A program made the translations under genes and the position numbers. The notes under the pieces were generated by a model. The model was not told where the DNA came from, ran no database searches, and worked only from the letters and a program-made list of their open reading frames with translations. 64,000 nt of DNA, taken from positions 713 through 64,712 of the forward strand of contig CAJXGD010000006.1 of the NCBI GenBank assembly GCA_913053845.1, in the 5' to 3' direction. The stretch is from an uncultured bacterium (lineage in GTDB: Bacteria > Bipolaricaulota > Bipolaricaulia > RBG-16-55-9 > DRJF01). Numbering within the stretch: the first letter of the stretch is position 1; every line of letters begins with the position of its first letter. Shown here in pieces: positions 20,265-45,565 of this stretch.

Positions 20265-20351
20265 TGGTGCCGAGGGGGGGACTCGAACCCCCACGAGCGC
20301 TTGCCCACACGCCCCTCAAGCGTGCGCGTCTGCCTATTCCGCCACCTCGGC
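20265..20351 (-). tRNA. tRNA-Leu (anticodon GAG), type II with long variable arm, CCA encoded
   Basis: Reverse complement folds as acceptor GCCGAGG/CCTCGGC, anticodon stem CACGC/GCGTG loop TTGAGGG (GAG, G37), long variable arm, T arm GGGGGTTCGAGTCCCCC, ACCA end. Confidence 0.8.
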
Positions 20352-28007: not shown

Positions 28008-29303
28008 ATGAGCCAGGGAGGGTGCATGAAGTTAATGAAACATACTATGAGACTGCTAAAGCTAGGGAGAAAGGCGAGCTTGACGCTGGGGCTAGGTCTG
28101 CTGGCTGTGGTGCTGGCCGGTTGTGCGGCCTTCTTCGCTCAGGCGCCGATCGCGATCATCTCGGCCACACCGACCAGCGGTGAAGCCCCTCTATTGGTCG
28201 GTTTTGACGGCTCCGGCTCCTTCGACCCCAATACCAACGGGGTGCTCACCAAATACCAATGGGATTTCGGTGATGGCAGCGCCCTGGCCCTGGGAGTGAC
28301 TCAGAGCCACTCTTATAAAGCCAATGGGACCTTCATCGCCACCCTCAAAGTGACCAATAATTTCGGGAAAGTTGGGGTTGATCTGCTGCCGCTCACCGTA
28401 GGCAAGCCGAGCATCTTCTTCAGCAGTGATCGCGGCGGGAACTACAACATCTTTCGCATGGATACCAACGGGGGCAACCAAGCTCAGGTTACCAACTACG
28501 CTTCAAGAGACGCCCTCTGGCCGGCTCTGCTGCCCAATACGCGCGACCGCCTGGCCTACTCCCACGAGGTGCAAAACCCTGATCTTACCACTCGTTTCCA
28601 GCTCTTCACCTCCCAGGTTGATGGCACCTTGCCGGCCCAACTCACGACCCAATCGAGCTCCAACAGCATTCAACCCTCCTGGTCACCCAATGGGAGCAAG
28701 ATCGCCTTCGCCTCCGACCGGGACAAGGCCAGTTGCGGCTGCTGGGGGATTTATCTCATGAACTCCGACGGCACAGGAACGGTGACCCTACGGGTGCAAT
28801 CGGGGAGCAACAACTTCGCCCCGGCCATCTCGCCCGATGGGAAGAAGATCGCCTTCGCTTCCAACAGCTCCGGCAATTATGAGATATATACCATGGATTT
28901 GGATGGCACGGGCGTGGTCAACATCACTAATAATACGCACAATGACGGTGGACCGCAGCTCACCGACTCCGACGGCCTGCCGGGCGCTCCCTCGGCGGTG
29001 CCCTTCTCCGGGCCGAGTTGGTCCCCCGATGGCACCCAGATCGCCTTCACTTCCAATCGCGACGGACCGGACCTGGACGTCTTCATCATGAACGCCGACG
29101 GCACTAACGTCATTCAACTGACCTCGAGCAGCGCGGACGATTACGATCCCTTCTGGCTACCCGGCGGCGGCGAGGTGGCCTTCGTCTCCACCCTCTCCGG
29201 CGGCTCGCCGCAGCTCTGGAAGATCAACACTACTAGCCATGCTCAGGTGCAATTGACCTCAACCGGCACCAATCTCAACGCTGCCGGTGCGAAGAATCCG
29301 TAG
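28008..29303 (+). CDS. secreted lipoprotein with a PKD domain and TolB-like beta-propeller repeats
   Basis: Lipobox VVLAGC; PKD signature (ATPTSGEAPLLVGFDGSGSFDPN..YQWDFGDGS); repeated IFFSSDRGGNYNIF / IAFASDRD / IAFASNSSGNYEIY / IAFTSNRDGPDLDVF blades. Confidence 0.65.
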   Translation: MSQGGCMKLMKHTMRLLKLGRKASLTLGLGLLAVVLAGCAAFFAQAPIAIISATPTSGEAPLLVGFDGSGSFDPNTNGVLTKYQWDFGDGSALALGVTQSHSYKANGTFIATLKVTNNFGKVGVDLLPLTVGKPSIFFSSDRGGNYNIFRMDTNGGNQAQVTNYASRDALWPALLPNTRDRLAYSHEVQNPDLTTRFQLFTSQVDGTLPAQLTTQSSSNSIQPSWSPNGSKIAFASDRDKASCGCWGIYLMNSDGTGTVTLRVQSGSNNFAPAISPDGKKIAFASNSSGNYEIYTMDLDGTGVVNITNNTHNDGGPQLTDSDGLPGAPSAVPFSGPSWSPDGTQIAFTSNRDGPDLDVFIMNADGTNVIQLTSSSADDYDPFWLPGGGEVAFVSTLSGGSPQLWKINTTSHAQVQLTSTGTNLNAAGAKNP

Positions 29304-30894
29304 ACGGGCGTGAAGGCTTATCAGGTAGGGGCACGGCATGCCGTGCCCCTACGGTCATGATCCAGAGCCCGGCCACGCCCAGCAACCCCAGCGCCAGATA
29401 GATGAACCAATCGCCGTAACGCACATAGGGTGTCAAGTCAGCCCTCAACTGCACCTGGCCGCGCAACAGAGCGGCCTGAGCGACCGCACTACGCCTCACG
29501 ATGCGCCCACGCGGGCCGACGATGGCTGAGAGGCCGGTATTGGCGGCCTGAAGAAAATAGCGATCGGTCTCAATGGCCCGGTAGACCCCGAAAGCCAAAT
29601 GCTGCGGCAAGGCCCAGCTGCGCTTGAACCAGGCATCGTTGGTGATGGTCACCAGCAGGCCGGCACCGCGGCGCACCAGCGCTCGGCCGATGCGGGGAAA
29701 GATTGACTCGAAGCAAATGTCCACCCCCAGGCGTCCCCAGGGGGCCTCCAGGGGGCGAAAGCCGGCACCGCGCTTCAGCTCACCCAATCGCCCGATGGGT
29801 AGCCAGCGAGAAAAACCCAGCCGGTTGAACAGGCCGATTCCCGGAAAGTACTCGGTGCTAAAGGGCACCAGTTGCACTTTATCGTAAGTTCCCAGCAGCG
29901 TACCCCCGGAGGAGAGCAACGCGGCGGTATTATAAAATCCTGTGGGCCTGGCATCTATCGTCCCCAGCAGCAGGGCAGTGCGCCGCTCGCGAGCGTAGCG
30001 CTCGAAGTAACCCAAGATCAGCCGGTCATGCAGCACGTAAGTAGGCAGAATAGACTCCGGCAAGATGACCAGATCGGTTGACCCTACTGGGATTCGCGCC
30101 AGCAATTTCTGATATTGCGCCAAGAAATCGCTCAAGTAGGCCCGGTCGCCCCGCAGGCGCTGGGGGATGTTCGGCTGGATCAGCGCCACCCGCAGCGCCG
30201 GCTCCTGGGACAAGGGCCGGCCGAGGCGCGCGGCTCCCCAGCCCCAGACCAGGCCCAGCACGATCAGGGCCAGCGCCGGATAGCGCCAGCGGTGCCGGCT
30301 CAAGCCCAGATAGAGCAGATAATTTATTAGCAATATCAAGAAGGAGATGATCCAGATGCCACCGAGCGCCGCGGCCTGAATCAGCGGCAGCTCCCGGTAG
30401 GTCGCTTGGGCCAGTTGGCCCCAGGTGAAGCCGAAAGGCCCCAGGGCGCGCAGGAACTCCAGTAGAGTCCAGAGGGCCGGTGCGATTAAGACCATCGCCC
30501 AAACGGGCAATCTCCGGTTAAACCAAGCATAAAAACTGCCGAAGGCACCCCAATAGAGGGCCAGATAGCCCACCAGCAGGAGATAGCCGGGGATGATCAG
30601 CAGGCCAGCCCAGTCCCAGAGGGTGTAGAGCCAGTATAGTAAGAAGGCGAAGAAGCAGGCTCCGGCGACGGCACCCAACTGAAGGCCGCGCCGCGGCCTC
30701 TGGCCCTGCAGGGCGAAGCAAAGCGGGACAAGCGCGACCCAGCTTAAGAAACCCAGCCCTGGGCCGGGCATGCTCAGCGCACCCAGCACCCCGGAGAGAC
30801 CGGCCAACAGCCAGGGCAGCACACTCATGCTGAAGGTCGCGGCTCTTCGGCCCGGTGGGGCGCTCGGCCGTGTGAGGGGGTCCTCAACGCTCAT
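29275..30894 (-). CDS. lnt: apolipoprotein N-acyltransferase
   Basis: 539 aa; N-terminal polytopic region plus C-terminal CN-hydrolase domain with catalytic E (ILPESI), K and C (VDICFESIF). Confidence 0.8.
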   Translation of the reverse strand: MSVEDPLTRPSAPPGRRAATFSMSVLPWLLAGLSGVLGALSMPGPGLGFLSWVALVPLCFALQGQRPRRGLQLGAVAGACFFAFLLYWLYTLWDWAGLLIIPGYLLLVGYLALYWGAFGSFYAWFNRRLPVWAMVLIAPALWTLLEFLRALGPFGFTWGQLAQATYRELPLIQAAALGGIWIISFLILLINYLLYLGLSRHRWRYPALALIVLGLVWGWGAARLGRPLSQEPALRVALIQPNIPQRLRGDRAYLSDFLAQYQKLLARIPVGSTDLVILPESILPTYVLHDRLILGYFERYARERRTALLLGTIDARPTGFYNTAALLSSGGTLLGTYDKVQLVPFSTEYFPGIGLFNRLGFSRWLPIGRLGELKRGAGFRPLEAPWGRLGVDICFESIFPRIGRALVRRGAGLLVTITNDAWFKRSWALPQHLAFGVYRAIETDRYFLQAANTGLSAIVGPRGRIVRRSAVAQAALLRGQVQLRADLTPYVRYGDWFIYLALGLLGVAGLWIMTVGARHAVPLPDKPSRPSTDSSHRQR

Positions 30895-30941: not shown

Positions 30942-32267
30942 CTAACTCTGCCGGCTCAGCCAGATAATGCGCCGCAGCACTTCTAAGTGGTTGAGCAGAG
31001 CCAGGGTTACTAGGGTGAAAAACGGCAAATTGAGCAACGCGCCCAAGGAGAGCAGCAACAGGCGCAGGTCGCGACCCAATCTCAAGGGCCGTCGGCCTTG
31101 CTCTAGGCGTTTCTTGAGGAATTGATCGTACTTATCGGCCGTATAACTGTTGAGCAGCACCCCAGAGAGAGCGGCCAGCGCCCAGAGCCAGCTAGCGGCC
31201 GATGGTGCAATCAGCCAGAGATGATAGCTCAGGCCGCCGATGAGCAGGCCATCGGCGTAGCGGTCGAGCACCGCATCCAACCAGCCGCCGAACTCGCTGG
31301 CCTGGAACTTGAGCCGAGCGATCTCGCCGTCGCAGCCGTCGCTGATCGAGGCTATCTGGGCCAAGAGGCCGCCAGCGGCCAAGGCGGCGTAGCCCGGTAG
31401 GGCCATGAGCAGCGCACCCAACAGGGCCAGCCCGAAGGAGAGCAGCGAAAGATGATTGGGCCGCAGTCGTCTAGATCGAACCAGCCAGCGGCTCAGTTGC
31501 AGGGAGAACGGTCGATTGAGATAACGGGAGACCGGCCCATCGGTCGGCTTCTTGAGTTGATCCAGCAGCGCGGCTTCGGCGGCGCGCAAGGCCTGAGGCG
31601 TGTCCACATCGAGCCAGAAGCGGCCCTTGACCTCCAGGGCCTTGGCGCGTCCGGCCTGGGCCAAGCGTCGCACGCCGGCCGAGAGCGATCCATCCTCCGG
31701 CAGCGTTGCAGCCAGCGCCGGGAATATCCGGGGCGAACAGAGGAAGATGCCAGTATCAAAAGCATCATAGCTCGGCAACTCCTTGCCGATATCAACGATG
31801 CGGTCGCCCTGGAGTCGCACCTTGGTCGCGTCGTCCAGGTCGCAGTATCCTGCCGGCGCGCGGTCCACCGCCAGCAGCAGGTCCGCGCCGTCGAGCGAAG
31901 CGGCCTCGAGCTCGGTGATAATCTGGGGATCGAAGAGATGATCGCCCATCAGCAACAAGAAAGGCTCTTCCAGCAGGTCTTGGGCGGCCAAGACGGAGCT
32001 GCCGTTGCCCTGCTGCCAGTGGGGGTTTGCCAGATAATGCAGTTGCACGCCCCAGCGCCGGCCATCCCCCAAGGCCTGCCGGAGCCCGGCACCCTGGTAA
32101 CCGGTGACCAGGTAGAAGTCACGCAGACCCGCTTGCCTGGCCGTGCGGATCACTCGCTCGATCAGCGGCAGGCCCAGCAGGCGGGCCAGCGGTTTGCTCT
32201 GTGCTTTAGCCCGCAACCTCCGCCCGGCCCCAGCGGCTAGGACCAAGCACTTCGTCGCTCTCTTCAT
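30942..32267 (-). CDS. bifunctional CTP:inositol-1-phosphate cytidylyltransferase / di-myo-inositol-1,3'-phosphate-1'-phosphate synthase (IPCT/DIPPS)
   Basis: N-terminal sugar-phosphate nucleotidyltransferase fold (CLVLAAGAGRRL..KPLARLLGLPLIERVI); C-terminal membrane domain with CDP-alcohol phosphotransferase motif DGEIARx8GGWLDAVLD; adjacent to the MIPS gene. Confidence 0.75.
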   Translation of the reverse strand: MKRATKCLVLAAGAGRRLRAKAQSKPLARLLGLPLIERVIRTARQAGLRDFYLVTGYQGAGLRQALGDGRRWGVQLHYLANPHWQQGNGSSVLAAQDLLEEPFLLLMGDHLFDPQIITELEAASLDGADLLLAVDRAPAGYCDLDDATKVRLQGDRIVDIGKELPSYDAFDTGIFLCSPRIFPALAATLPEDGSLSAGVRRLAQAGRAKALEVKGRFWLDVDTPQALRAAEAALLDQLKKPTDGPVSRYLNRPFSLQLSRWLVRSRRLRPNHLSLLSFGLALLGALLMALPGYAALAAGGLLAQIASISDGCDGEIARLKFQASEFGGWLDAVLDRYADGLLIGGLSYHLWLIAPSAASWLWALAALSGVLLNSYTADKYDQFLKKRLEQGRRPLRLGRDLRLLLLSLGALLNLPFFTLVTLALLNHLEVLRRIIWLSRQS

Positions 32268-33366
32268 CGGCCAGTTCTCCCATGATGAAGCGCTCGACCA
32301 GCTCCTTGGCCCGGTGGTCCGGCAACTGGAGTGGCGGGTGCTTCATGAAATAGGCTGCAGGTCCCTCGAGGGCACCACCGATCCCCCGCTCCAGGGCCAG
32401 CTTGATCACCCGGATGGCGTCGATGACGATGCCCGCCGAGTTGGGCGAATCCTCCACGCTGAGCCGCAGCTCCAGGTTCATGGGGACGTCGCCGAAGAGC
32501 CGCCCTTCCATGCGGATGAAGGCGATCTTATTGTCCTTCTGCCACGGCACGTAGTCGCTGGGGCCGATGTGAATATCCTCGGCCGGCAGCTGCTGGGCCA
32601 GGACCGATTGCACCGCCTCGGTCTTGGAGATCTTCTTCGACTGCAGGCGCTGGCGGTCGAGCATATTGAGGAAATCGGTGTTTCCTCCGGTATTGAGCTG
32701 ATAGGTACGGTCGAGCTGCACCCCGCGATCGGCGAAGAGCTGACCGAGCAGCCGGTGGGTGATGGTCGCCCCCAGCTGGGACTTGACGTCGTCACCGATG
32801 ATCGGCAGACCGACTTGGCGGAAGCGTGCCTCCCAGGCGGGGTCGGAGGCGATGAAGACCGGCATGCAGTTGATGAAGGCCACCCCAGCTTTCAGGGCGC
32901 ATTCGGCGTAGAAGCGCACGGCCTTCTCCGAGCCCACCGGCAGGTAGTTCACCAAGATCTCGGCGCCGGAGCGCCGCAGCTCCCGGACGATCTGGGCCTG
33001 GCCGGGTTCCGGCTCGTCGGCCGGCAAGAAAGTTCGTGAGTCGTCATAGTCAGCCATGTGCGGAGAGACCCCGTCGAGCACCTGTCCCATCCGCACCGTC
33101 ACCCCGCTGGGGGGAAGATCAGGAGAAAAAACAGTAGTACAATTGGGCGGCGCAAAGACAGCTTCGCTCAGGTCCCGACCGACCTTGCGCGCGTCTATGT
33201 CGAAGGCGGCCAGCACCTCGATATCCGAGGGCAGATAGCCACCCAACTCCCAATGCATCAGGCCGATGGCCCCTTCGGGGTTCTTGTGGCGATAGTAATG
33301 GATGCCTTGGACTAAGGCACTGGCACAGTTGCCCACACCACAGAGGGCAATCTTGATCTTATCCAT
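32206..33366 (-). CDS. ino1: myo-inositol-1-phosphate synthase (archaeal/thermophile type)
   Basis: Rossmann N-terminus MDKIKIALCGVGNCASALVQG, conserved NAD/catalytic blocks (..TGGNTDFLNML.., SKKISKTEAV..); start set at MDKIK (the ORF track extends to 33399). Confidence 0.8.
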   Translation of the reverse strand: MDKIKIALCGVGNCASALVQGIHYYRHKNPEGAIGLMHWELGGYLPSDIEVLAAFDIDARKVGRDLSEAVFAPPNCTTVFSPDLPPSGVTVRMGQVLDGVSPHMADYDDSRTFLPADEPEPGQAQIVRELRRSGAEILVNYLPVGSEKAVRFYAECALKAGVAFINCMPVFIASDPAWEARFRQVGLPIIGDDVKSQLGATITHRLLGQLFADRGVQLDRTYQLNTGGNTDFLNMLDRQRLQSKKISKTEAVQSVLAQQLPAEDIHIGPSDYVPWQKDNKIAFIRMEGRLFGDVPMNLELRLSVEDSPNSAGIVIDAIRVIKLALERGIGGALEGPAAYFMKHPPLQLPDHRAKELVERFIMGELADEESDEVLGPSRWGRAEVAG

Positions 33367-33468
33367 TGATCTTCTCCTTTCGTCATTTGAGCAACACAAA
33401 TCTCCCCAGACACATTCCCTAGCGTCTGGGTATGCACCCAGCTTCCCGCGCGACCGTCTAAGGTTCAG

Positions 33469-33760
33469 GTGGTTGTGAGATTAACCAGAATGACACGGCC
33501 TAACTTCACTATAATACCTTGGCAGGAGCGTGTCAAGCCTGCCAAGCTGTCGTTGGGGAGCCGGGCGATCTACAAGCTGGTCAAGCACCTATTGGGCGAG
33601 CAGCGCTATGAGGGCAACCTCGCACAGCAATCCCTCAAGGGTAGGCCCATGCTTGACGGTTAATCATGACTTGCTATAATGACGCCGAGCGGCTTTCCGT
33701 GGACCCTGCCATGCGGCACGTGGTGGGCGGCAGGGCCAAGGAGCGGAATGGCGGAAAATT
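33469..33760 (+). pseudogene. possible IS5-family transposase N-terminal remnant (frameshifted, truncated)
   Basis: Two frames carry fragments resembling the IS5 transposase N-terminus (TIIPWQERVKP..GNL in one frame; AERLSVDPAMRH in the next), recalled from the IS5 pattern ILPWQ...ARLSLDSALPD; no DDE domain follows. Confidence 0.25.
33653..33680 (+). promoter_or_regulatory. candidate sigma70-like promoter (TTGACG-16-TATAAT) directed toward the DUF211 and VIT-like gene pair
   Basis: -35 at 33653-33658, -10 TATAAT at 33675-33680. Confidence 0.3.
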
Positions 33761-33837: not shown

Positions 33838-34176
33838 ATGCAATACGGCTTTAAAAAACAAAAAAGTGATCCTGAAACTGGGAACACCTCAATGAATATC
33901 CGTCGCCTTGTACTTGATGTGGACAAAAGCTTTTCTCTCCCCTCGCTTCTGGACATCGCCAGGAGTATAGACACGGTCGCCGGGGTAGAGGCCTTTAATA
34001 TCACGGTTGAGGAGATAGATATGGAGACGGTGGGCACCGTCATAACGGTCGAGGGCAACAACATCGATTATGCCGGTCTGGTAAAGGCCATCGATGCAAC
34101 TGGCGCGGTAGTGCATTCAGTTGATGAACTGGTAATTGGAAGTCACATGGTCGAATTTGTCAGGCGCCATCGGTGA
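33838..34176 (+). CDS. DUF211-family protein (hypothetical)
   Basis: 112 aa; IRRLVLDVDK..AGVEAFNITVEEIDMETVGTVITVEGNNIDYAGLVKAIDATGAVVHSVDELVIG fits my recollection of the DUF211 pattern (RRLVLDVLKPH..VEGV..V.V.EVD..TE...ITVEG..ID...I...IE..G..IHSIDEVV.G). Confidence 0.45.
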   Translation: MQYGFKKQKSDPETGNTSMNIRRLVLDVDKSFSLPSLLDIARSIDTVAGVEAFNITVEEIDMETVGTVITVEGNNIDYAGLVKAIDATGAVVHSVDELVIGSHMVEFVRRHR

Positions 34177-34700
34177 GAAACTACCTCTTATTCCCCCTGT
34201 CAGTCGGGCTCGCGGACGGAATCATTACTGCGCTGATACTTACGGCGGGAGAGATCCTGCATGTCGGGGGCCATATCGGTTTCGGTCTGGCCCTTCGCAT
34301 CGCTGTTGGAGTGGCTCTCCCGAGCGTCTTTACCTTCTTCGTTGCTAACTATGCCAGGCTCCGCCGGGAGTTGGTACATGCCTCGAGGGAGCTCAACTTG
34401 GACTCCCCCATGCACTTGATAGATAGCCACCTGGGCCGAATCATCGTCCGTAAAGCGCTTATAGTGACCTCGGTCGGAGCTGTCTCCGGCTTTGCCGGTG
34501 CCCTCTTACCACTCCTGGTCAGCGTTCTGATACCGAGTCCCGCGTGGCTCACGATCGCTGCAGCTATCCTGGCATTAGGCGTCTTCGGGGCGAGTCTTGC
34601 AATCTCCGTGCGTGGAAATCCTGTATATTGGATGGTTGCTCTAGTGCTTGCAGGGGCACTGGTCACGATTATTGGCAGTGTACTTCACATCGTGAGATAG
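34173..34700 (+). CDS. small polytopic membrane protein, VIT1/CCC1-like (putative Fe/Mn transporter)
   Basis: 175 aa, ~5 TM helices; N-terminal LSVGLADGIITALILTAG resembles the VIT motif FNDGLTANFGLIMG of the MbfA-like protein at 7849; 4-nt overlap with the DUF211 gene. Confidence 0.35.
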   Translation: MRNYLLFPLSVGLADGIITALILTAGEILHVGGHIGFGLALRIAVGVALPSVFTFFVANYARLRRELVHASRELNLDSPMHLIDSHLGRIIVRKALIVTSVGAVSGFAGALLPLLVSVLIPSPAWLTIAAAILALGVFGASLAISVRGNPVYWMVALVLAGALVTIIGSVLHIVR

Positions 34701-36461: not shown

Positions 36462-36926
36462 ATGGACATCGAAGCCCTCGCAGCCAAATTACACCCCGTC
36501 CTATCTACCCGGCCGGAAGTGCGACTGGCCTATCTATTCGGCTCGGCTGCCCAGGGCCGCACAAAAAATAAGCTCAGCGATCTTGATATCGCCGTGCTGG
36601 TGGACGAGGACTATTACGAAGCTCACAAGGGAGGCTTTGCCTATGAAGCGGATTTGATCAACGATCTAGTCCAGGCACTGCGAATGAACAGGATAGACCT
36701 CGTCCTGCTGCACAAATCTCCACCCCTGCTGGCTCACGAGGTCATCCGCAAGGGCCGGTTGCTCTTCTGTCGCGACGCTCACGAGCGTGTCATCTTTGAG
36801 GTGGAGGTTATGAAGCGCTACTTGGATACCCAGCCGCTACGTCAGATCAAGCGCCAGTATCTCTACGAACGCATCGAGCGCGGCGCATTCAGCGAGGTGA
36901 AGCTACCATTGTCAACCGAGAGGTAA
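36462..36926 (+). CDS. minimal nucleotidyltransferase (MNT/MntA-like antitoxin of a HepT/MntA-type TA pair)
   Basis: 154 aa; GS..x9-13..DxD pol-beta NTase motif (LFGSAAQG..LSDLDIAVLVD). Confidence 0.75.
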   Translation: MDIEALAAKLHPVLSTRPEVRLAYLFGSAAQGRTKNKLSDLDIAVLVDEDYYEAHKGGFAYEADLINDLVQALRMNRIDLVLLHKSPPLLAHEVIRKGRLLFCRDAHERVIFEVEVMKRYLDTQPLRQIKRQYLYERIERGAFSEVKLPLSTER

Positions 36927-36958
36927 TCGAGGCGCACCTGGGGAACATAGCGCTTCAT

Positions 36959-37336
36959 GTGGCCCATCTGAAGTCCTTGCGTACTCGTTCTCTGGTGGAA
37001 TTCTCGCGGGATTGGCTAGCCTTTTACGCTGCCGAACGAGGCATCCAAATTGCCGTGCAGAATCTGTTGGACATTGGTGCGCATATCCTGGCCGATTTTG
37101 GGGATTCACAATGGGACGAATACAAGCAAATCCCGGTGGAGCTGGCCCGCTATGGCGTGGTTCCTCAGGAGTACGTAGAACGAGCTCAGCGGATGGCCGG
37201 AATGCGTAACCTGTTGGTCCATCAGTACACCGAAATTGACGTAGATCAAGTCTATGAGGTGCTCAAGAACCATCTGGATGACTTCGACCGCTTTGCTGCT
37301 TATGTTAAGGCCTACTTGGATCGGTCACCACCTTGA
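36959..37336 (+). CDS. HEPN-domain protein (HepT/DUF86-like toxin)
   Basis: 125 aa from a GTG start (the reading frame is open from 36902, so the true start may overlap the MNT stop); Rx4-6H motif RNLLVHQY near the C-terminus. Confidence 0.75.
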   Translation: MAHLKSLRTRSLVEFSRDWLAFYAAERGIQIAVQNLLDIGAHILADFGDSQWDEYKQIPVELARYGVVPQEYVERAQRMAGMRNLLVHQYTEIDVDQVYEVLKNHLDDFDRFAAYVKAYLDRSPP

Positions 37337-37404: not shown

Positions 37405-39060
37405 TCAAAGATCGTTGGTAAACAGGGTGATCTCATCCGTGCCGAAGCCGATGACCGCCAAGTCCGGGAAACCCTCGCGGTCGAAATCTCCCAGCGCAAT
37501 GCCCGCCGGAGTGCCTCCGGCATGAAGCAGCTTGCGCCCACCGGCCAGAAATTCCCCGCTCGCATCGCCTAGCAGCACCGCCAGCGTGTCGTTGCCCCCG
37601 TTGGCCGTCACCAGGTCAAGCTGCCCATCACCGTTCAGATCGGCACTGGCCACCGCACGGACCTGTGAGCCCACCGGGATGATCACCCGCTGGTTAAAAT
37701 GGCCGCCGGGAGCACCGTGCAAGATGGTCAGATCGCCATCGGCAGAGTCGGCCACCGCCAAGTCCAGCCACCCATCGTGGTTGAAGTCGCCGGCAGCCAA
37801 CGCGGCCGGCCCACGGCCCACCGCCGTCTCCAGCGGCGCGGCAAAGTCGCCCCGACCGTCACCGATCAAGATGGCTACCGTATCGCCGAAGAAGTCGGCC
37901 ACGGCCAAATCCAGTCGCCCATCACCGTTGAAGTCGCCTGAGAGCAGCGCACTGGGCCAGCGGCCGGCCGGGGCATAGCGGGCCGGGGCGAAGCCACCTT
38001 GCCCATCTCCCAGCAGCAACCCGATGCGATTCTGCGGGGCATCGGCCACGGCCAGATCGAGATGGCCATCGTCGTTGAAGTCCCCCCAGCTCAGCGCCGA
38101 GACCGCTCCGGCCACCGGGAAATAGCGCAGTGGCTGAAAGCGCCCGGCCCCGCTGCCTAGCGCCAGGGAAATTTCTCCGGTCTCGAAGCTGCCGCTGGCC
38201 AGGTCCGGCAAACCGTCCTCATTGAAATCGGCCACTACCAGCGAAGAGGGCGCGTGGCGCACCGGGATATTGCCGATCTGGCTGAAGCGGCCATCGGGTT
38301 GCTGGATCAGCACCGAGATGTCGTTGCTGGCGATATTGGCCACTGCCAGGTCGAGTCGCCCGTCGCCGTCCAGATCGGCGCTGACCACTGCCACCGGCGA
38401 GCGACCCACCGGCTGGACCAGTTTCTCGCTGAAGCCGAGCGCCTGAATCTCCACCACGGCGCGATCGCTCAGGTCGGCCGCGCCGGTGACCGTCAGTGTG
38501 GCCCGGTAGCGCCCCCCACGGGCGTAACGGTGGCTCACTCGCATACCGTCGGCTCCACTGCCATCGCCAAACCCCCAATGATAGCCGATGATAACCCCGG
38601 CGTTGGGGCCGTCGGCCGGCCCCAGGGAACCGGAGCCGTCGAAGGTGACCGTCAGGGGCGCCCAGCCCCCGGTGGGACTGGCGATCAGCAGCGCCCGGGG
38701 CACCAGGTCTCCCACGGTGATGGTCAGCGCGGCCGCCCCGCTGCGCCCCCGATCGTCGCTGACCAGCAGGCGCACCCGATAGCGGCCCTTGCGGTTATAA
38801 CTGTGGATCACCTGGGAGCCTTGCGCTTGGCTACCATCGCCCAAACTCCATTGATAGCGCACCAGGGTTGCTCCGGCCGTGCCGCTCACCGAGGCTGAGC
38901 CGTCCAGATGCACCACCAGCGGCGGGGGCCCGCTGATCGGCGAGGCCTTGATCACCGCCAGCGGTGCCCCTGGCGGGCCCATCAGGCCACAGCCGCTCAA
39001 TACCAGCACCAGGCTGGCGCAGATGAGCATCAGTTTGAGCCAATTGGCAGCTTGTTTCAC
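37405..39060 (-). CDS. secreted lipoprotein with two PKD domains and FG-GAP/VCBS (integrin-alpha-like) repeats
   Basis: Lipobox LVLSGC; two PKD signatures (PLVVHLDGSASV..YQWSLGDGS; PLTVTFDGSGS..YHWGFGDGS); seven or more repeats of DFNxDGxLDLAVA. Confidence 0.7.
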   Translation of the reverse strand: MKQAANWLKLMLICASLVLVLSGCGLMGPPGAPLAVIKASPISGPPPLVVHLDGSASVSGTAGATLVRYQWSLGDGSQAQGSQVIHSYNRKGRYRVRLLVSDDRGRSGAAALTITVGDLVPRALLIASPTGGWAPLTVTFDGSGSLGPADGPNAGVIIGYHWGFGDGSGADGMRVSHRYARGGRYRATLTVTGAADLSDRAVVEIQALGFSEKLVQPVGRSPVAVVSADLDGDGRLDLAVANIASNDISVLIQQPDGRFSQIGNIPVRHAPSSLVVADFNEDGLPDLASGSFETGEISLALGSGAGRFQPLRYFPVAGAVSALSWGDFNDDGHLDLAVADAPQNRIGLLLGDGQGGFAPARYAPAGRWPSALLSGDFNGDGRLDLAVADFFGDTVAILIGDGRGDFAAPLETAVGRGPAALAAGDFNHDGWLDLAVADSADGDLTILHGAPGGHFNQRVIIPVGSQVRAVASADLNGDGQLDLVTANGGNDTLAVLLGDASGEFLAGGRKLLHAGGTPAGIALGDFDREGFPDLAVIGFGTDEITLFTNDL

Positions 39061-39128
39061 CGCTCACTCCCCGTGACTCGATTATGCCTATGATAATGAT
39101 TGATCGTCCCGGTGGCAATTCAACCCTC

Positions 39129-41339
39129 TCAGCGCCTGACTGCCAGCTTCTGCACCCCGCTGCTGACCGTCTGCCCCTGGGCGGTGTCAACCGTGACCAG
39201 ATAGAGATAGACCCCCGTGGCCACCGGGGCGCCCAGCCGATCCTGCTCTGACCAGACCAGCGCTCGCCTGATCGTGGCGCTGAAGCTGAAGACCACCCGC
39301 CCGGCCAGGTCGAATACCTGCAAGTGCCAGCCCCTCCCAGCCGCGCCGGGGGCCATAAGCGCCGACCAGAGATATCCTGAGGCCCGGCGCTGCGGTCTGA
39401 GCGCGGCCAGCTCGGCCCGCAGGGTTCGGCCCTGGCCGACCACTATCAGGCTGTCCCCCTCGACCGGCCGGCCATTGATCGTGCCCTTTAAGCGGTAGCG
39501 TCCTGGCTTGATCTCCGAGGAGAGCACCAGCGCGTAACGCAGCCAGATCGTCCGGCCCGGCGCGGCGGCCGGCCAACTCCAGGCCGAGCTTCCGGGGTCA
39601 AACTCTCCCCCGCCATTGTCCAGCGGCACGATGCGAAAACCCGCAGGCGGCTTCTCCTGCAGTCGCAGGCCGCCGAAGCGCCCCAGTGGCATTTGCAAAT
39701 TGATCGAGACGACCAGTCGCTCGCCAGGTCGGACAGCGGAGCCCGTATGCTGAACGTGACGTGCGGCGCTGGGCCAACCTAGGATCAAGTCTAGCTCGCC
39801 GGCCCCATAGGTGACGTCGGGACCGGGCGGGCCCAGATCGGTGGCGTCCCCGCGCAGAGCGGCCTTCAGTTGGGCGGTGCTCCAGCCGGGATGCTGCGAG
39901 AGCAGCAGTGCGGCCGCTCCGGCCACGTGCGGCGCGGCCGCCGAGGTCCCCAAGAAACCGCCGAATCTATTAGAGAAGAAAAGATTGTCTACCCCATCGG
40001 GTCCGACTAAATCCGGCTTGATGCGCCCATCGAAGGTGGGCCCCAGGGCGCTGAAGCTCTCCTGAGGGCCGCTGGACCAGCGCTCGCGATTGACCGCTCC
40101 CACGGCCAGCGTGCAGCTGCAGTCGGCCGGAGCGACGAGGCTGCCGTGGGGTATGGGCTTCTCAAAATATGCTCCCGACTCGATCTGAAAGAGCCGCAGC
40201 CACATCGGCCGCGTGGCCCAGTGGGCGCGGACCCGCACGAAATAGACACCGGGATGGTCAGCCACATATTGCAGCTCCTCGCGTGGTGGCTGGGTCCCCG
40301 TCTGGCGATTCTGAGAGCTGGCCAGCACCTTGCCACGGGCATCGGTGAGATAGAGATCGTAATCCTGATCGGTCGTCGGCCAGTCGTTCCAGACCAGCAC
40401 CAGGTCAATCAGGCCGCCAAGCGGCACTTTCAGCGCTAGCGACTGCTTCCCCAGGGCGAACTCGGCCCAACCGTCGTGGTTGCTGTCGCGGAAGCGGCCT
40501 ATCCAGTGCGCCTGTGCTTGATTGCCCGCCGCGTTGACCCAAAGGATCCCCGCGGCACGAGCTCGACGCGCTATCTCATTGATCAAACCCGTCCCGTCGT
40601 CGAAATCGGTATCGAACCAACCGAGCGAGCAATTGATCACCCGAACACCTAGCCGAATCGCATCATCCACGGCGTTCTCTAAGTCAACCTCATCGCCGAT
40701 CTTCATCAGATATAGCTGAGCACGCGGGGCCATCTCATGGACGATCTCGGCCACGGCGCTGCCATGCTCGCCGCCGGTCAGCAGTCCTTTGCCGGTATAG
40801 TCTTTTTTGAAGACGATCGCGCCGGCCGCCAGCACCCGGTGCTTCACCGCCCAGTAGAGCCCGGAGAAGCCGGCATCTATGATGGCTACCTTGACCCCTT
40901 GACCTTGGAAACCCTGGCTCTGGAAGAGCAGGCCACCGGTGGGCAGCAGCCCTTGGCTGAGCTGCAACTGACCCAGCGGCGCCCAGCGGTAGGGCCGACG
41001 GATATATCTGATGCCGGGGACACGGGTGGCGATCTCATTCAAGCGATCCAGCGGCAGGCGGGCGCGCAGCAGGTCGGATGAGCGCGCCTCGATCTGGGCG
41101 CCCAACTCTCGCAAGGCCGCTTGATCTATCGCGCCGCTCGCGCCTCCCAGGGGTTCGATGATCGCCGTGACAGAAGCACCCGGCCGGCTTGTGGCAGCCA
41201 GCCGGGCCAGCGAGCTCTCCAATTTGCCGCTCGGCGGAGGAGGGCCGGCTAAAGCGATGAAGGAGAGCGCAGCAAAGAGCAGCAGTAGGGGCGAAGCATT
41301 CGCAAGCCAAGAACGGCGTATCTTCTTGAATGCTTGCAC
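39129..41339 (-). CDS. subtilisin-like serine peptidase (S8) with T9SS-type C-terminal sorting-domain-like tail
   Basis: 736 aa; catalytic D (VAIIDAGF), H (HGSAVAEIV), S (GTSAAAPHVAGAAALL); C-terminal ~80 aa LQVFDLAGRVV..GVYLYLVTV..GQTVSSGVQKLAVRR shared with the three downstream paralogs; GTG start. Confidence 0.8.
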   Translation of the reverse strand: MQAFKKIRRSWLANASPLLLLFAALSFIALAGPPPPSGKLESSLARLAATSRPGASVTAIIEPLGGASGAIDQAALRELGAQIEARSSDLLRARLPLDRLNEIATRVPGIRYIRRPYRWAPLGQLQLSQGLLPTGGLLFQSQGFQGQGVKVAIIDAGFSGLYWAVKHRVLAAGAIVFKKDYTGKGLLTGGEHGSAVAEIVHEMAPRAQLYLMKIGDEVDLENAVDDAIRLGVRVINCSLGWFDTDFDDGTGLINEIARRARAAGILWVNAAGNQAQAHWIGRFRDSNHDGWAEFALGKQSLALKVPLGGLIDLVLVWNDWPTTDQDYDLYLTDARGKVLASSQNRQTGTQPPREELQYVADHPGVYFVRVRAHWATRPMWLRLFQIESGAYFEKPIPHGSLVAPADCSCTLAVGAVNRERWSSGPQESFSALGPTFDGRIKPDLVGPDGVDNLFFSNRFGGFLGTSAAAPHVAGAAALLLSQHPGWSTAQLKAALRGDATDLGPPGPDVTYGAGELDLILGWPSAARHVQHTGSAVRPGERLVVSINLQMPLGRFGGLRLQEKPPAGFRIVPLDNGGGEFDPGSSAWSWPAAAPGRTIWLRYALVLSSEIKPGRYRLKGTINGRPVEGDSLIVVGQGRTLRAELAALRPQRRASGYLWSALMAPGAAGRGWHLQVFDLAGRVVFSFSATIRRALVWSEQDRLGAPVATGVYLYLVTVDTAQGQTVSSGVQKLAVRR

Positions 41340-41356
41340 GAATGCTTCGCCCCTAC
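41285..41356. repeat. perfect 19-bp inverted repeat (AGTAGGGGCGAAGCATTCG / CGAATGCTTCGCCCCTACT) spanning the S8 gene start
   Basis: Arms at 41285-41303 (inside the signal-peptide codons) and 41338-41356 (start codon, RBS region and 3' end of the upstream gene), with a ~34-nt loop; same arm sequence as the element at 10306-10349. Confidence 0.5.
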
Positions 41357-41358
41357 TC

Positions 41359-43113
41359 TTATCTGAGGACGACCAGCTTTTTGACCCGACTGCTGAAGCT
41401 CTGTCCGTCCGCGCCCCGGACCGTCACGATATAGAGATAAACCCCGTTGGCCAGCGGCCGACCGGAGCGATCCAGCGGCCGGAAACGCAACCGGTTGCCG
41501 CTCCCTTGTAGGTCTGCGAGGGGACGGCCGTTCAGGCTGAAGAGCTGTAGCCTGACGTCGGCGATCCCCGCTCCTCGGACCTGCAATTCCGCCCGGCCAC
41601 CTGACAGCGAGCGCAGGCCGATGGAGCTTATCGCTAGAGGTGCCGCTGCCGCTGTGGGCTCTCTCATCATGCTCTGGCTGACTCCCAGGAAGCGGAGCAG
41701 GTCGCCCCAGAGGCCACCTACTGCCAGACTGGGCGGGCCGGGGGGCAGAAGCGAATTGTCCCAGCGGTTACGGTCCAGACCGGCGCTGAATAGCTTGCAA
41801 CTACCGGCCACTTTGACCCAGTAGCCCTTAAAATCATTGAGCGGCTCGCTGGGATCAATCGGCGCGTACTTGCTGCCATCGTACCACCAGGGCCCCGATT
41901 GCAGTTGACAGCCGCGAAAGATCGAGCCAATACGATTCCAGCTCTTGGAGGAGGAGATCAGATTCCAACCCTGATGCAACTCCAGATCCTGACGGACATT
42001 GGTGCCGGTCGCCTGCAGGGTGCAGGCGTTATCCACCTTGAGCCAATAACCCTTGGCCGGCTCCAGCTTGTTGGCCTGGATATAGCGGCTGCCGGTCCAC
42101 TCCCAAGGGCCGCTGGCGAACTGACAGGTGCCCTTCAGATCAGCCGGTGCAATGGTGCCCACCGGTGAGGAGATCATGTTCCAGCCGGCGTCGAGCCGCA
42201 AGATCAAGCCGGAGATCGGCACTGGAGGAGGCGGCGGCGCACCGGAGGTGGGCGGGCCGGACTCGCTGATGATGCTAAAACTGTCGGTGAGTGGGCGGTC
42301 ACTCAGGAAATTCGAGCCACAGTTGATCGGGATATCCCGTTGGCAAGGGCCGTTCTCTTTCAAAGGCGTATCGTCGGCCACCGCCAGCCGCAGCGAGACG
42401 TTAATCCGGCCGGCTGGAGCGTTGGAGCCGATGTCCACAGTGAAGTAGAGCAGCAGCGGCGTCGTCTCGCCACCCAGGCCGGCGGCGTAGACCGGCTGTA
42501 GGTTTTGGCTGGTCATGATCCAATCTTGCTGGCGCCCGAAGCGGGCGACGGCCTGCCCATTGCTGTTGGTAAATTGAACCGGCACCCGGGCTATCAGCTC
42601 GTTGGCCTGGAAGAGGATGCCATCTCCACCTCCACTAAAAGGAGGGAGAGGGAAGCCATCGGTGTAGACACGCAAAGTCTTGAGTGCCTTGGCGCCCGGT
42701 CCGCTAAAGGTGATCACCCCGCCCTTGATGCCGGTGGCCAGGCCATCGGCTCCGCCGGTCTTGGCCGGCTTGGGCGTGCAGCCTAAGATCGCCAAGCCGC
42801 CGGAGATGGCCATCGGCGTGCCCGGCAGAGAAGGGACGATCTTAGCGGTAGTATTATTCAGCACTCCGCCGTCACAGATGCCCACCACAATGGCCAGCGC
42901 CTCATCGGTGCCCGGGTTGATCTGTCGCGCTTGATCCCGTGTCAGCAGGTTGGTCAGGTGAATCACCTGGATGTCGCTCTCCGCTAGGCCGCTGCCGGCC
43001 AGATAGCCTGGTAAAGGCGCCGCTGAGGCCCTCCCGCCGCCGGTCCCAAATCCCACCAGCAGCAGGACGGACGACAGCAGCGCCACCAGAACAGTCCGCA
43101 TGCTATACTTCAT
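41359..43113 (-). CDS. secreted repeat protein, paralog 1 (shared N-terminal domain, 2 Trp/Cys-rich modules, T9SS-type CTD-like tail)
   Basis: 584 aa; signal peptide; N-terminal domain ~65% similar to paralog 2; two modules of the form GWNMISSPV..C..GPWEW.G..Y..A..LEPAKGYWLKV..C; CTD ..GVYLYIVTVRGADGQSFSSRVKKLVVLR. Confidence 0.6.
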   Translation of the reverse strand: MKYSMRTVLVALLSSVLLLVGFGTGGGRASAAPLPGYLAGSGLAESDIQVIHLTNLLTRDQARQINPGTDEALAIVVGICDGGVLNNTTAKIVPSLPGTPMAISGGLAILGCTPKPAKTGGADGLATGIKGGVITFSGPGAKALKTLRVYTDGFPLPPFSGGGDGILFQANELIARVPVQFTNSNGQAVARFGRQQDWIMTSQNLQPVYAAGLGGETTPLLLYFTVDIGSNAPAGRINVSLRLAVADDTPLKENGPCQRDIPINCGSNFLSDRPLTDSFSIISESGPPTSGAPPPPPVPISGLILRLDAGWNMISSPVGTIAPADLKGTCQFASGPWEWTGSRYIQANKLEPAKGYWLKVDNACTLQATGTNVRQDLELHQGWNLISSSKSWNRIGSIFRGCQLQSGPWWYDGSKYAPIDPSEPLNDFKGYWVKVAGSCKLFSAGLDRNRWDNSLLPPGPPSLAVGGLWGDLLRFLGVSQSMMREPTAAAAPLAISSIGLRSLSGGRAELQVRGAGIADVRLQLFSLNGRPLADLQGSGNRLRFRPLDRSGRPLANGVYLYIVTVRGADGQSFSSRVKKLVVLR

Positions 43114-43199
43114 GTTGACCTCCCCTTGGATTCATGTTGAGGGATAAATGCCTCGCAGCTTCTTTATACCTCAACCGGATAAGGGGAGGCACGACGGTC

Positions 43200-45425: not shown

Positions 45426-45448
45426 CTATGTTCCCCCTTGATTATACG

Positions 45449-45565
45449 CCGGGGATTGAAATCCCCGGCTACGGTGAGGCATAAAACCCCTACGGGGTTC
45501 CAGGTCGTGAACCCTCGTGAGAGGGTTTCCCTGACGTCACGTAGCCGGGAAATTCATTTCCCGGT
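45449..45565. repeat. structured intergenic element, copy A (four hairpins plus a closing long-range helix)
   Basis: Hairpins CCGGGGA-TTGAAA-TCCCCGG, CCCC-TA-GGGG, AACCCTC-GTGA-GAGGGTT, CCGGGAAA-TTCA-TTTCCCGG; CCGGCTACG pairs with the distal CGTAGCCGG; ~80% identical to copy B at 61361-61474 with compensatory changes. Confidence 0.45.

What the first reader, a model, noticed from the sequence alone, without database searches (positions are those of the whole stretch)
30942..33760. Di-myo-inositol phosphate (DIP) biosynthesis pair next to an IS5-like scar
An archaeal-type myo-inositol-1-phosphate synthase lies next to a fused nucleotidyltransferase plus CDP-alcohol phosphotransferase (motif DGx2ARx8Gx3Dx3D present). 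This is the signature gene pair for DIP, a compatible solute essentially restricted to (hyper)thermophiles, and it points to a thermophilic or at least DIP-osmoadapting lifestyle. Immediately beyond the MIPS gene is a lower-GC junction carrying frameshifted fragments resembling an IS5-family transposase N-terminus, so the pair may have been acquired horizontally. No inositol-monophosphatase gene lies adjacent; the DIPP phosphatase step is presumably encoded elsewhere.
Basis: partly seen in the sequence, partly recalled or inferred. Interest (0 to 1): 0.5.

Follow-up and report, generated by a model that had tools for sequence, protein, structure and literature searches.

The report
Inositol-phosphate solute gene pair, non-classical clade
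Two overlapping genes in a Fraserbacteria/Bipolaricaulota genome encode an inositol-phosphate synthase and a fused enzyme that most likely make the stress solute di-myo-inositol phosphate, but this enzyme variant is common in cold deep-sea microbes and so does not mark a heat-loving lifestyle.

Summary
The gene pair is real. MIPS lies at 32206-33366 (-). A fused nucleotidyltransferase plus CDP-alcohol phosphotransferase lies at 30942-32267 (-), overlaps MIPS by 62 nt, and carries the complete DGx2ARx8Gx3Dx3D motif. The fused protein aligns end to end with A. fulgidus IPCT/DIPPS in sequence and in predicted structure. A DIP-type pathway is therefore the best reading.

- The MIPS is the M. tuberculosis Ino1 type, not the archaeal type.
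- The fused enzyme misses NCBI's IPCT/DIPPS equivalog cut-off (271 vs 580 bits; true members score 640-735). It sits in a separate, very large clade that includes the uncharacterised AF2299. That clade occurs in at least 577 species, mostly deep-sea, cold-seep, trench and vent MAGs, so it does not show thermophily.
- The "IS5 scar" is a single 22-codon relic of an IS1380-family transposase inside a divergent promoter region.
- Horizontal acquisition is not supported. The pair has the host's GC and GC3. Its nearest relatives (98% bootstrap) include a Bipolaricaulota MAG, the lineage to which a housekeeping gene also assigns the host.

No IMPase-family gene lies in the 64 kb window.

Verdict: an ordinary new member of a known kind, with modest interest.

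The parts
32206..33366 (-). myo-inositol-1-phosphate (inositol-3-phosphate) synthase, 386 aa, M. tuberculosis Ino1 type. The mechanical ORF extends to a TTG at 33399.
   Evidence: PF01658, E 1e-36. TIGR03450 gives 450 bits over the full length but is below its 638 cut-off. PDB 1gr0 scores 426.8 bits and 1u1i scores 42 bits. An AAGGAG Shine-Dalgarno sequence lies 7 nt before ATG 33366.
30942..32267 (-). Fused IPCT-like cytidylyltransferase plus DIPPS-like CDP-alcohol phosphotransferase, 441 aa.
   Evidence: Pfam domains. NF041135 gives 271.5 bits over aa 6-438. PDB 4mnd has E 2.6e-50 over the full length. The AlphaFold model has pLDDT 92.8, and the top Foldseek hit is 4mnd with TM 0.76/0.82.
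31554..32267 (-). N-terminal cytoplasmic nucleotidyltransferase domain (aa 1-238), predicted to be a CTP:inositol-1-phosphate cytidylyltransferase.
   Evidence: The best PDB matches are the two solved IPCTs, 2xme (87.8 bits) and 4jd0 (69.2 bits). GxGxR...K, GNGxS, MxDH, DTGxF and WxDxD are invariant with AF0263 and the Thermococcales enzymes.
30945..31547 (-). C-terminal membrane domain (aa 241-441): a juxtamembrane helix plus six transmembrane helices.
   Evidence: The model has helices at 245-262, 270-288, 293-319, 325-353, 357-389, 399-411 and 415-439. The domain aligns end to end with six-TM AF2299 at 134 bits and with AF0263 at 75 bits.
31263..31340 (-). CDP-alcohol phosphotransferase signature D1xxD2G1xxAR...G2xxxD3xxxD4.
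   Evidence: It translates to DGCDGEIARLKFQASEFGGWLDAVLD. The same motif is tabulated for AF2299 and AF0263 in PMC8727905.
32206..32267 (-). 62-nt overlap between the 3' end of MIPS and the 5' end of the fused gene; translational coupling is likely.
   Evidence: Coordinates. Overlaps of 53-56 nt recur in relatives from other phyla (L001, L025, L061, L064, L066, L067).
33508..33536 (-). Sigma-70-like promoter candidate for the MIPS/IPCT-DIPPS operon (TTGACA-17-TATAGT).
   Evidence: Matches 11 of 12 consensus positions. This is a consensus match only.
33678..33743 (+). 22-codon relic of the N-terminal region of an IS1380-family transposase.
   Evidence: 77% identity to aa 88-109 of the Phaeobacter IS1380 transposase, E 2.4e-5 in the window. 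The 43-aa ORF containing it matched 199 plasmid records, and the listed annotated hits are IS1380-family transposases. It is present once in the window.
29275..30894 (-). Apolipoprotein N-acyltransferase (Lnt), 47 nt downstream on the same strand. It may be co-transcribed, but it is not a conserved partner.
   Evidence: TIGR00546 gives 308 bits, above its cut-off. No Lnt lies next to the pair in any of the 83 related loci.

Best explanation
This is a two-gene cassette for an inositol-phosphodiester compatible solute, most probably di-myo-inositol phosphate (DIP).

Proposed steps:
1. MIPS converts glucose-6-phosphate to L-myo-inositol-1-phosphate.
2. The N-terminal domain of the fused protein activates that product with CTP to give CDP-inositol.
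3. The six-helix membrane domain transfers inositol-phosphate from CDP-inositol to a second, soluble inositol-1-phosphate, giving DIPP.
4. An IMPase-family phosphatase encoded outside this window would remove the phosphate to give DIP.

Shown here: the domain architecture, the catalytic motifs, the fold, and conserved linkage to MIPS. Inferred: the identity of the acceptor, and therefore of the product, and the phosphatase step.

The enzyme belongs to a large sister clade of the classical hyperthermophile enzymes. The pair was probably inherited within the Fraserbacteria/Bipolaricaulota lineage. It indicates general stress-solute capacity (osmotic, pressure or heat) and is not a marker of thermophily.
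For: Homology:
- The protein is homologous over its full length to the A. fulgidus IPCT/DIPPS structure 4mnd, in sequence (E 2.6e-50) and in structure (pLDDT 92.8; TM 0.76/0.82).
- 48 columns are invariant across 42 sequences from both clades. They include residues outside the generic motifs: NRxxS at 251-255 and RDxR at 399-402. The RDxR motif has the RxxR form that PMC4634129 links to inositol-phosphate recognition in PIP synthases; this is my reading of the sequences, not a tested alignment.
- The N domain's best solved relatives are the two known IPCTs.

Architecture:
- The membrane domain has only six TM helices. PMC4634129 associates that architecture with soluble acceptors.

Genomic linkage:
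- MIPS lies directly upstream on the same strand in 30 of 66 related loci that have enough upstream DNA, and within 2.4 kb in 6 more.
- The two proteins co-evolve (Spearman 0.74; 0 of 999 Mantel permutations reach this value).
- In 8 loci from 5 phyla an IMPase-family gene (PF00459) lies directly upstream of the fused gene. This fits a soluble phosphorylated intermediate.

Inheritance:
- The pair's GC3 equals the window norm.
- The pair falls in a clade with 98% bootstrap that contains the Bipolaricaulota MAG L038 and P0002-P0008.
- The host's UvrD best matches Fraserbacteria RBG_16_55_9 (61%) and Bipolaricaulota (46-57%).
Against: - The protein fails the curated equivalog cut-off: NF041135 gives 271.5 against 580, while AF0263 scores 642, Geoglobus 640 and Thermococcus 735.
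- Its membrane domain is nearer to AF2299, whose substrates are unknown or disputed (PMC4634129 against PMC8633023), than to the proven DIPPS domain. A split with 100% bootstrap separates it from the classical clade.
- I could not place any biochemically characterised enzyme inside this clade. The Aquifex and Rubrobacter sequences could not be retrieved.
- There is no phosphatase gene in the 64 kb window.
- In the papers read here, carriers of such genes are known only from gene, transcript or proteome data. None reports DIP itself in a non-thermophile.
Confidence: 0.65

Rival explanations
1. The chemistry is the same, but the acceptor or donor differs. The membrane domain would be an AF2299-type enzyme that makes another phosphodiester solute, for example glycero-phospho-inositol from CDP-inositol plus glycerol or glycerol-3-phosphate, and not DIP.
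For: The membrane domain scores 134 bits (39% identity) against AF2299 and 75 bits (36%) against the AF0263 DIPPS domain. AF2299 falls on the same side of the 100% split. AF2299 was crystallised with CDP-glycerol. A. fulgidus keeps both paralogues, which suggests they have different roles (inference).
Against: Unlike AF2299, this protein keeps a complete IPCT domain with all catalytic motifs. It is coupled to MIPS, so both substrates for DIPP are made on the spot. No glycerol-phosphate cytidylyltransferase or glycerol-phosphate gene recurs nearby. The residues invariant with proven DIPPS enzymes include the RDxR and NRxxS motifs.
Confidence: 0.17
2. Inositol phospholipid synthesis by a Kennedy-like route. 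CDP-inositol made by the N domain would be transferred to diacylglycerol to give phosphatidylinositol, as proposed but not confirmed for the alternative Bacteroides/Prevotella cluster.
For: Heaver et al. 2022 (PMC9246714) propose exactly MIPS + NTP transferase + CDP-alcohol phosphotransferase for PI synthesis. The clade is frequent in mesophilic lineages, including Bacteroidetes MAGs. The membrane-lipid enzyme Lnt lies 47 nt downstream here.
Against: The protein has only six TM helices, and PMC4634129 reports that enzymes with lipid acceptors carry 3-4 extra helices. No HAD hydrolase partner is present. The Lnt adjacency is unique to this genome among 83 loci. A soluble IMPase-type phosphatase is coupled to the gene in 8 loci. 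The PIP synthase models score far below their cut-offs.
Confidence: 0.08
3. The pair is a recently acquired mobile island, delivered by or next to an insertion sequence.
For: An IS1380-type relic lies 312 nt upstream of MIPS. The flanks differ from those of the closest relatives L001 and L085, which share synteny with each other. Across phyla, the family's distribution does not follow organism taxonomy.
Against: The pair has GC 0.62-0.64 and GC3 0.78-0.79, the same as the window's housekeeping genes. The genes with atypical composition are on the far side of the junction: DUF211 at GC 0.49 and a MNT/HepT pair at 0.53-0.56. The relic is 66 nt with no terminal repeats or second copy. The nearest relatives include a MAG of the host's own lineage, at identities (62-67%) similar to those of UvrD (53-63%). 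No fused homologue is plasmid-borne in PLSDB.
Confidence: 0.1

Closest known systems
A. fulgidus AF0263 bifunctional IPCT/DIPPS (PDB 4mnd), together with the Thermococcales enzymes covered by NCBIfam NF041135
   Same: The two-domain order, the fold and the six-TM membrane domain are the same. All catalytic motifs of both domains are shared, as are the NRxxS and RDxR motifs.
   Different: Identity is only 31-34%. The protein scores 271 bits against a 580 cut-off and sits in a separate clade with 100% bootstrap. The classical clade is found in hyperthermophilic archaea. This clade is spread over dozens of mostly bacterial phyla.
A. fulgidus AF2299 CDP-alcohol phosphotransferase (PDB 4o6m/4o6n/4q7c)
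   Same: It is the closest solved relative of the membrane domain (134 bits, 39% identity), and the motif context ARLKF...WLD.VLDRY is nearly identical.
   Different: The N-terminal domain of AF2299 does not match this protein's cytidylyltransferase domain in sequence (0.4 bits). Its physiological substrates are unknown.
Putative MIPS + IPCT/DIPPS genes reported in hadal and sediment Thaumarchaeota and in Atribacteria (PMC7265257, PMC8397731, PMC10773090, bioRxiv 10.1101/536078)
   Same: Thaumarchaeota (L045) and Atribacterota (L083) MAGs are among the 80 closest genome hits to this protein. The Thaumarchaeota MAG groups with the non-classical sequences in the tree. The IMPase gene next to the fused gene in the Thaumarchaeota locus matches what those papers describe.
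   Different: The host here is a Fraserbacteria/Bipolaricaulota MAG, a lineage in which I found no report of the pair. No phosphatase lies nearby.
Thermotoga maritima DIP pathway with split genes (IPCT structure 4jd0)
   Same: The IPCT fold is the same (TM 0.82 to 4jd0), and the predicted chemistry is the same.
   Different: The Thermotoga genes are separate. Its IPCT has GNAYS and CGDS where both fused clades have GNGxS and MxDH, and it is roughly equidistant from both fused clades.
Alternative inositol-lipid cluster of Bacteroides vulgatus/Prevotella (Heaver et al. 2022)
   Same: It also combines MIPS with an NTP transferase and a CDP-alcohol phosphotransferase.
   Different: In that cluster the genes are separate and accompanied by a HAD hydrolase, and the proposed acceptor is a lipid. 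Here the genes are fused, there is no HAD partner, and the architecture is the six-TM type linked to soluble acceptors.

Membership tests
Bifunctional IPCT/DIPPS (DIP synthesis) | N-terminal nucleotidyltransferase fused to a C-terminal CDP-alcohol phosphotransferase | tested here: met
   Pfam PF12804/PF00483 at aa 7-236 and PF01066 at aa 269-377.
Bifunctional IPCT/DIPPS (DIP synthesis) | IPCT catalytic motifs and the CAPT motif D1xxD2G1xxAR...G2xxxD3xxxD4 | tested here: met
   G13, R17, K25, N88, S91, M107, D109, H110, D171, G173, F175, W218, D220 and D222 are invariant, as are D310...D335.
Bifunctional IPCT/DIPPS (DIP synthesis) | Fold: a cytoplasmic Rossmann-like domain on a six-TM domain, as in 4mnd | tested here: met
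   Model pLDDT 92.8. Foldseek rank 1 is 4mnd, E 2e-27, TM 0.76/0.82.
Bifunctional IPCT/DIPPS (DIP synthesis) | Score above the curated equivalog cut-off (NCBIfam NF041135, 580 bits) | tested here: not met
   The protein scores 271.5 bits. The controls AF0263 (642), Geoglobus (640) and Thermococcus (735) pass. The clade-mates Microbulbifer (255) and Bipolaricaulota (250) fail.
Bifunctional IPCT/DIPPS (DIP synthesis) | Membrane domain groups with biochemically characterised DIPPS enzymes | tested here: not met
   A split with 100% bootstrap separates the AF0263/Thermococcales clade from all others. The domain is closer to AF2299. The Aquifex and Rubrobacter enzymes could not be included.
Bifunctional IPCT/DIPPS (DIP synthesis) | Genomic linkage to MIPS | tested here: met
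   The genes overlap in the window. MIPS is adjacent in 30 of 66 informative related loci.
Bifunctional IPCT/DIPPS (DIP synthesis) | A DIPP phosphatase (IMPase family) is available | tested here: inconclusive
   There is none in the 64 kb window. One lies next to the fused gene in 8 related loci. The rest of this genome was not available.
Bifunctional IPCT/DIPPS (DIP synthesis) | Product is DIPP/DIP | not testable with these tools
   This needs an enzyme assay or solute NMR.
Phosphatidylinositol-phosphate / archaetidylinositol-phosphate synthases | Score above the NF045883 (170) or NF040950 (180) cut-offs, and a stand-alone membrane protein of about 200 aa | tested here: not met
   The protein scores 49.8 and 79.8 bits. 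It is fused to a cytidylyltransferase. PDB PIP synthases score only 21-28 bits against the membrane domain.
Kennedy-type CDP-inositol:diacylglycerol route (Heaver alternative cluster) | Separate NTP transferase, phosphotransferase and HAD hydrolase genes, with extra C-terminal helices for a lipid acceptor | tested here: not met
   The gene is fused. No HAD gene lies within 4 kb on either side. The protein has six TM helices and ends at residue 441. The extra-helix criterion comes from PMC4634129. No direct comparison with the B. vulgatus proteins was made.
Archaeal-type MIPS (A. fulgidus 1u1i type) | Closest similarity is to archaeal MIPS | tested here: not met
   1u1i scores 42 bits against 426.8 bits for M. 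tuberculosis Ino1 (1gr0). The best NCBIfam model is TIGR03450, at 450 bits against a cut-off of 638.
IS5-family transposase remnant | Similarity to IS5 (DDE_Tnp_1) transposases | tested here: not met
   No Pfam or NCBIfam hit. Every listed tblastn hit that falls in an annotated gene is an IS1380-family transposase.

The most novel reading that the evidence does not exclude
The fused enzymes outside the classical Archaeoglobales/Thermococcales clade form a very large clade: at least 577 GTDB species, and 1756 clusters at 50% identity with E<1e-10. It includes AF2299. It may have no biochemically proven member. It may make something other than DIP, such as glycero-phospho-inositol or another inositol phosphodiester. 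Alternatively it may make DIP as a pressure, cold or energy-limitation solute in non-thermophiles. Either outcome would change the textbook view of DIP as a marker of thermophily. A cultured carrier, Microbulbifer thermotolerans DSM 19189, makes the question directly testable.
Probability: 0.25. Interest if true: 0.55.

Novelty: new member of a known kind. Interest (0 to 1): 0.3.

Why it matters
For this genome, the result adds a probable compatible-solute pathway to a poorly known candidate lineage (Fraserbacteria/Bipolaricaulota).

More generally, the case shows that annotating any MIPS + IPCT/DIPPS-like pair as a sign of thermophily is unsafe. The variant found here belongs to a clade that dominates in deep-sea, seep, trench and subsurface MAGs, and its product has never been measured. 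If DIP, or a relative of it, is a widespread pressure or starvation solute, that bears on how subsurface microbes survive. One enzyme assay, or NMR on one cultured carrier, would settle it.

Tried and rejected
- Profile searches of the junction ORFs and of a stitched translation against Pfam and NCBIfam at E<=10 found nothing. tblastn of the upstream 34-aa piece found only chance hits.
- A search for more of the IS1380 transposase around the relic found only one non-significant collinear 9-aa piece (E 35). The relic is therefore treated as 66 nt.
- A self-BLAST of the junction found no second copy in the window.
- The primary papers on AF2299, AfDIPPS and IPCT/DIPPS (Sciara 2014, Nogly 2014, Rodrigues 2007, Brito 2011) are not held. 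Statements about them come from citing papers or from memory.
- I could not retrieve the characterised bacterial enzymes (Aquifex aeolicus, Rubrobacter xylanophilus), so they are not placed in the tree.
- Lnt as a functional partner is rejected, because the adjacency is unique to this genome.
- Plasmid carriage is rejected, because PLSDB holds no fused homologue.
- Temperature class from composition is indeterminate. IVYWREL gives 48-80 degrees C depending on how the many surface proteins are weighted. (E+K)/(Q+H) = 1.3 points to a mesophile (threshold recalled from memory). tRNA GC is 0.56-0.71.
- The tree is neighbour-joining on about 200 columns. Its deep internal nodes are unresolved (bootstraps of 2-40%), so I rely on only two splits, those with 98% and 100% support.


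Full report
**Observation**

The minus strand carries two overlapping genes.

ORF 30942-32267 (441 aa) has an N-terminal nucleotidyltransferase domain (PF12804/PF00483, aa 7-236) and a C-terminal CDP-alcohol phosphotransferase domain (PF01066, aa 269-377). The signature DGCDGEIARLKFQASEFGGWLDAVLD lies at 31263-31340.

Directly upstream is a myo-inositol-1-phosphate synthase (PF01658, E 1e-36). Its mechanical ORF begins at a TTG at 33399. An ATG at 33366 preceded by AAGGAG is the likely start, giving 386 aa.

The two genes overlap by 62 nt. GC falls from 0.62-0.67 in the pair to 0.49-0.56 between 33.2 and 34.2 kb. The core observation is therefore confirmed.

**Identity of the fused protein**

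Its best NCBIfam model is the IPCT/DIPPS equivalog NF041135, at 271.5 bits over aa 6-438. Models for archaetidylinositol-phosphate and PIP synthases score 79.8 and 49.8 bits, well below their cut-offs.

Among solved structures the best match is A. fulgidus IPCT/DIPPS (4mnd), with E 2.6e-50 over the full length.

An AlphaFold model built on 42 sequences has pLDDT 92.8. Foldseek ranks 4mnd first (TM 0.76/0.82), followed by AF2299 and the two IPCT structures 4jd0 and 2xme. The model shows a juxtamembrane helix and six TM helices, and the protein ends at residue 441.

Across 42 sequences that span both this protein's relatives and the Archaeoglobales/Thermococcales enzymes, 48 columns are invariant. 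They include the catalytic motifs of both domains, NRxxS at 251-255 and RDxR at 399-402.

**It is not a member of the characterised group**

The NF041135 cut-off is 580 bits. AF0263 scores 642, Geoglobus 640 and Thermococcus 735. This protein scores 271.5, and its clade-mates score 250-255.

Taken alone, the membrane domain scores 134 bits (39% identity) against AF2299 and 75 bits (36%) against the DIPPS domain of AF0263.

In a neighbour-joining tree of the membrane domain (72 sequences, 200 columns, 200 bootstraps), the AF0263/Thermococcales clade is split from everything else with 100% support. AF2299 falls on this protein's side.

The substrates of AF2299 are unsettled. PMC4634129 treats it as a non-lipid enzyme that uses CDP-glycerol. 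PMC8633023 says it is probably involved in PI-phosphate synthesis.

T. maritima IPCT (4jd0) is roughly equidistant from both fused clades. If the root lies between split and fused genes, as I recall Goncalves et al. 2012 concluding, then DIP synthesis is the ancestral function of all fused enzymes. That is an inference, not a test.

**Size and distribution of the clade**

The membrane domain finds 5772 representatives at 50% identity with E<1e-3, and 1756 with E<1e-10.

The best 80 cover Thermoplasmata, Methanophagales, Helarchaeota, Thaumarchaeota, Bathyarchaeota, Planctomycetota, Zixibacteria, Nitrospinota, Acidobacteriota, Desulfobacterota, Gammaproteobacteria, Bacteroidota, Atribacterota, WOR-3 and others.

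Most are MAGs whose names indicate cold seeps, trenches, vents and marine sediments. One cultured organism appears, Microbulbifer thermotolerans DSM 19189 (L061, 50% identity).

Published work already reports such genes in organisms living at about 2 degrees C and in cold hydrate sediments (PMC7265257, PMC8397731, PMC10773090, bioRxiv 10.1101/536078). The pair therefore does not indicate thermophily.

Composition indices for this window disagree with each other:
- IVYWREL gives 48-80 degrees C, depending on how an unusual block of surface proteins is weighted.
- (E+K)/(Q+H) is 1.3, which is mesophile-like (threshold from memory).
- tRNA GC is 0.56-0.71.

**Genomic context in relatives**

Across 81 distinct loci the only recurrent neighbours are MIPS and an IMPase-family gene.

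MIPS lies immediately upstream on the same strand in 30 of 66 loci that have enough upstream DNA, and within 2.4 kb in 6 more. In several loci from different phyla the two genes overlap by 53-56 nt, as they do here.

Distances between MIPS proteins and between fused proteins are correlated (Spearman 0.74; 0 of 999 Mantel permutations reach this value). The pair therefore evolves as a unit.

In 8 loci (Thaumarchaeota, Zixibacteria, Bryobacterales, Brocadiales, Gammaproteobacteria) an IMPase-family gene (PF00459) sits directly upstream of the fused gene. A soluble phosphatase fits DIPP dephosphorylation and argues against a lipid product.

The six-TM architecture points the same way. PMC4634129 notes that enzymes with lipid acceptors carry three or four extra helices.

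In this window there is no IMPase-family gene at all.

**MIPS type**

The MIPS scores 426.8 bits against M. tuberculosis Ino1 (1gr0) and only 42 bits against A. fulgidus MIPS (1u1i). "Archaeal-type" is wrong.

**The junction and the IS claim**

The 471-bp spacer between MIPS and the divergent DUF211 gene holds two near-consensus sigma-70-like promoters that face outward: 33536-33508 on the minus strand and 33653-33680 on the plus strand.

The only transposase-like sequence is 33678-33743 (+), NDAERLSVDPAMRHVVGGRAKE. It is 77% identical to residues 88-109 of a Phaeobacter IS1380 transposase (E 2.4e-5 in the window). The 43-aa ORF that contains it matched 199 plasmid records by tblastn, and the listed hits under an annotated gene are all IS1380-family transposases.

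No profile model matches it. It occurs once in the window. It is a small IS1380 relic, not IS5.

**Horizontal transfer**

The pair has GC 0.62-0.64 and GC3 0.78-0.79, the same as the neighbouring housekeeping genes (UvrD, TatC, EF-P, NusB, Lnt).

The compositionally odd genes lie on the other side of the junction: DUF211 at GC 0.49, a membrane protein at 0.56, and a MNT/HepT pair at 0.53-0.56.

The protein's closest relatives are P0002-P0008 at 62-67% identity and the Bipolaricaulota MAG L038 at 62%. Together they form a clade with 98% bootstrap.

The host's UvrD best matches Fraserbacteria RBG_16_55_9 (61%) and Bipolaricaulota/Acetothermia (46-57%). At least part of the pair's nearest kin therefore lies in the host's own lineage, at identities similar to a housekeeping gene's.

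The flanks do differ. Relatives L001 and L085 share the order FUR, ABC transporter, MIPS, fused gene, then LplA, CdsA, UppS and ValRS, and this window does not. That points to rearrangement, but it does not show recent acquisition.

Across phyla the family is clearly mobile. In this genome recent transfer is not supported. No fused homologue is plasmid-borne in PLSDB.

**Conclusion**

The most likely function is a MIPS, CDP-inositol, DIPP (DIP) pathway, with confidence about 0.65.

The rivals are a different soluble acceptor of the AF2299 type (0.17), a Kennedy-like inositol lipid route (0.08), and, separately, recent IS-linked acquisition (0.10).

The finding is a new member of a known kind. 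The residual interest is that this very widespread clade has, as far as I could establish, no biochemically proven member, and that a cultured carrier exists for a direct test.

Noticed in passing
window 14262-15505: This stretch has low GC (0.49-0.50) and holds a truncated IS1595-family transposase fragment (14262-14624; PF12762, E 3.6e-22; only the last 89 positions of the domain) and two small ORFs with no Pfam hit. It lies just upstream of tRNA-Gln at 15806. It may be a decayed insertion at a tRNA.
   Followed up: partly
window 36462-37336: A MNT-type nucleotidyltransferase (PF18765) is followed by a HepT-like RNase (PF01934), which is a toxin-antitoxin pair. Its GC (0.53-0.56) is lower than that of its surroundings.
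   Followed up: partly
window 33838-34700: A DUF211 gene (PF02680, E 1e-27; GC 0.49, the lowest in the neighbourhood) overlaps a 175-aa membrane protein that weakly resembles TIGR00267. This gene pair, and not the inositol pair, is the compositionally foreign side of the junction.
   Followed up: partly
window 37405-47290: Five consecutive large minus-strand ORFs (551-741 aa) have a very low IVYWREL fraction (0.32-0.39). The first is a PKD + FG-GAP protein and the second a subtilase. The other three (41359-43113, 43200-45425, 45569-47290) have no Pfam match. They are probably a block of surface or secreted proteins.
   Followed up: partly
L061 (Microbulbifer thermotolerans DSM 19189, NZ_FOKT01000008.1), MIPS 4899-6056 and fused gene 6004-7317: A cultured marine gammaproteobacterium carries the same overlapping MIPS + fused-gene cassette (50% identity). 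No paper in the library links Microbulbifer to DIP. It is a ready experimental system.
   Followed up: partly
L019 9478-10656, L048 165-1289 and similar loci: GH130 (mannoside phosphorylase-like) genes occur near the fused gene in 6 loci, and family-1 glycosyltransferases in 5 loci. This may hint at glycosylated inositol-phosphate solutes such as mannosyl-DIP.
   Followed up: no
L030 8791-9449: A second, stand-alone CDP-alcohol phosphotransferase gene (PF01066) lies about 1.5 kb downstream of the fused gene in a Nitrospinota MAG.
   Followed up: no
AF2299 (PDB 4o6m) versus P0210, P0145, P0134: Apart from the 345-aa homologue P0210, AF2299's nearest relatives in my set are full fused proteins of the large clade. 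AF2299 therefore looks like a derivative of that clade in which the N-terminal domain has degenerated. That would help explain why its function has been hard to assign.
   Followed up: partly
window 10229-10305, 15806-15879, 20265-20351, 53172-53248: All four tRNA genes encode their 3' CCA.
   Followed up: no
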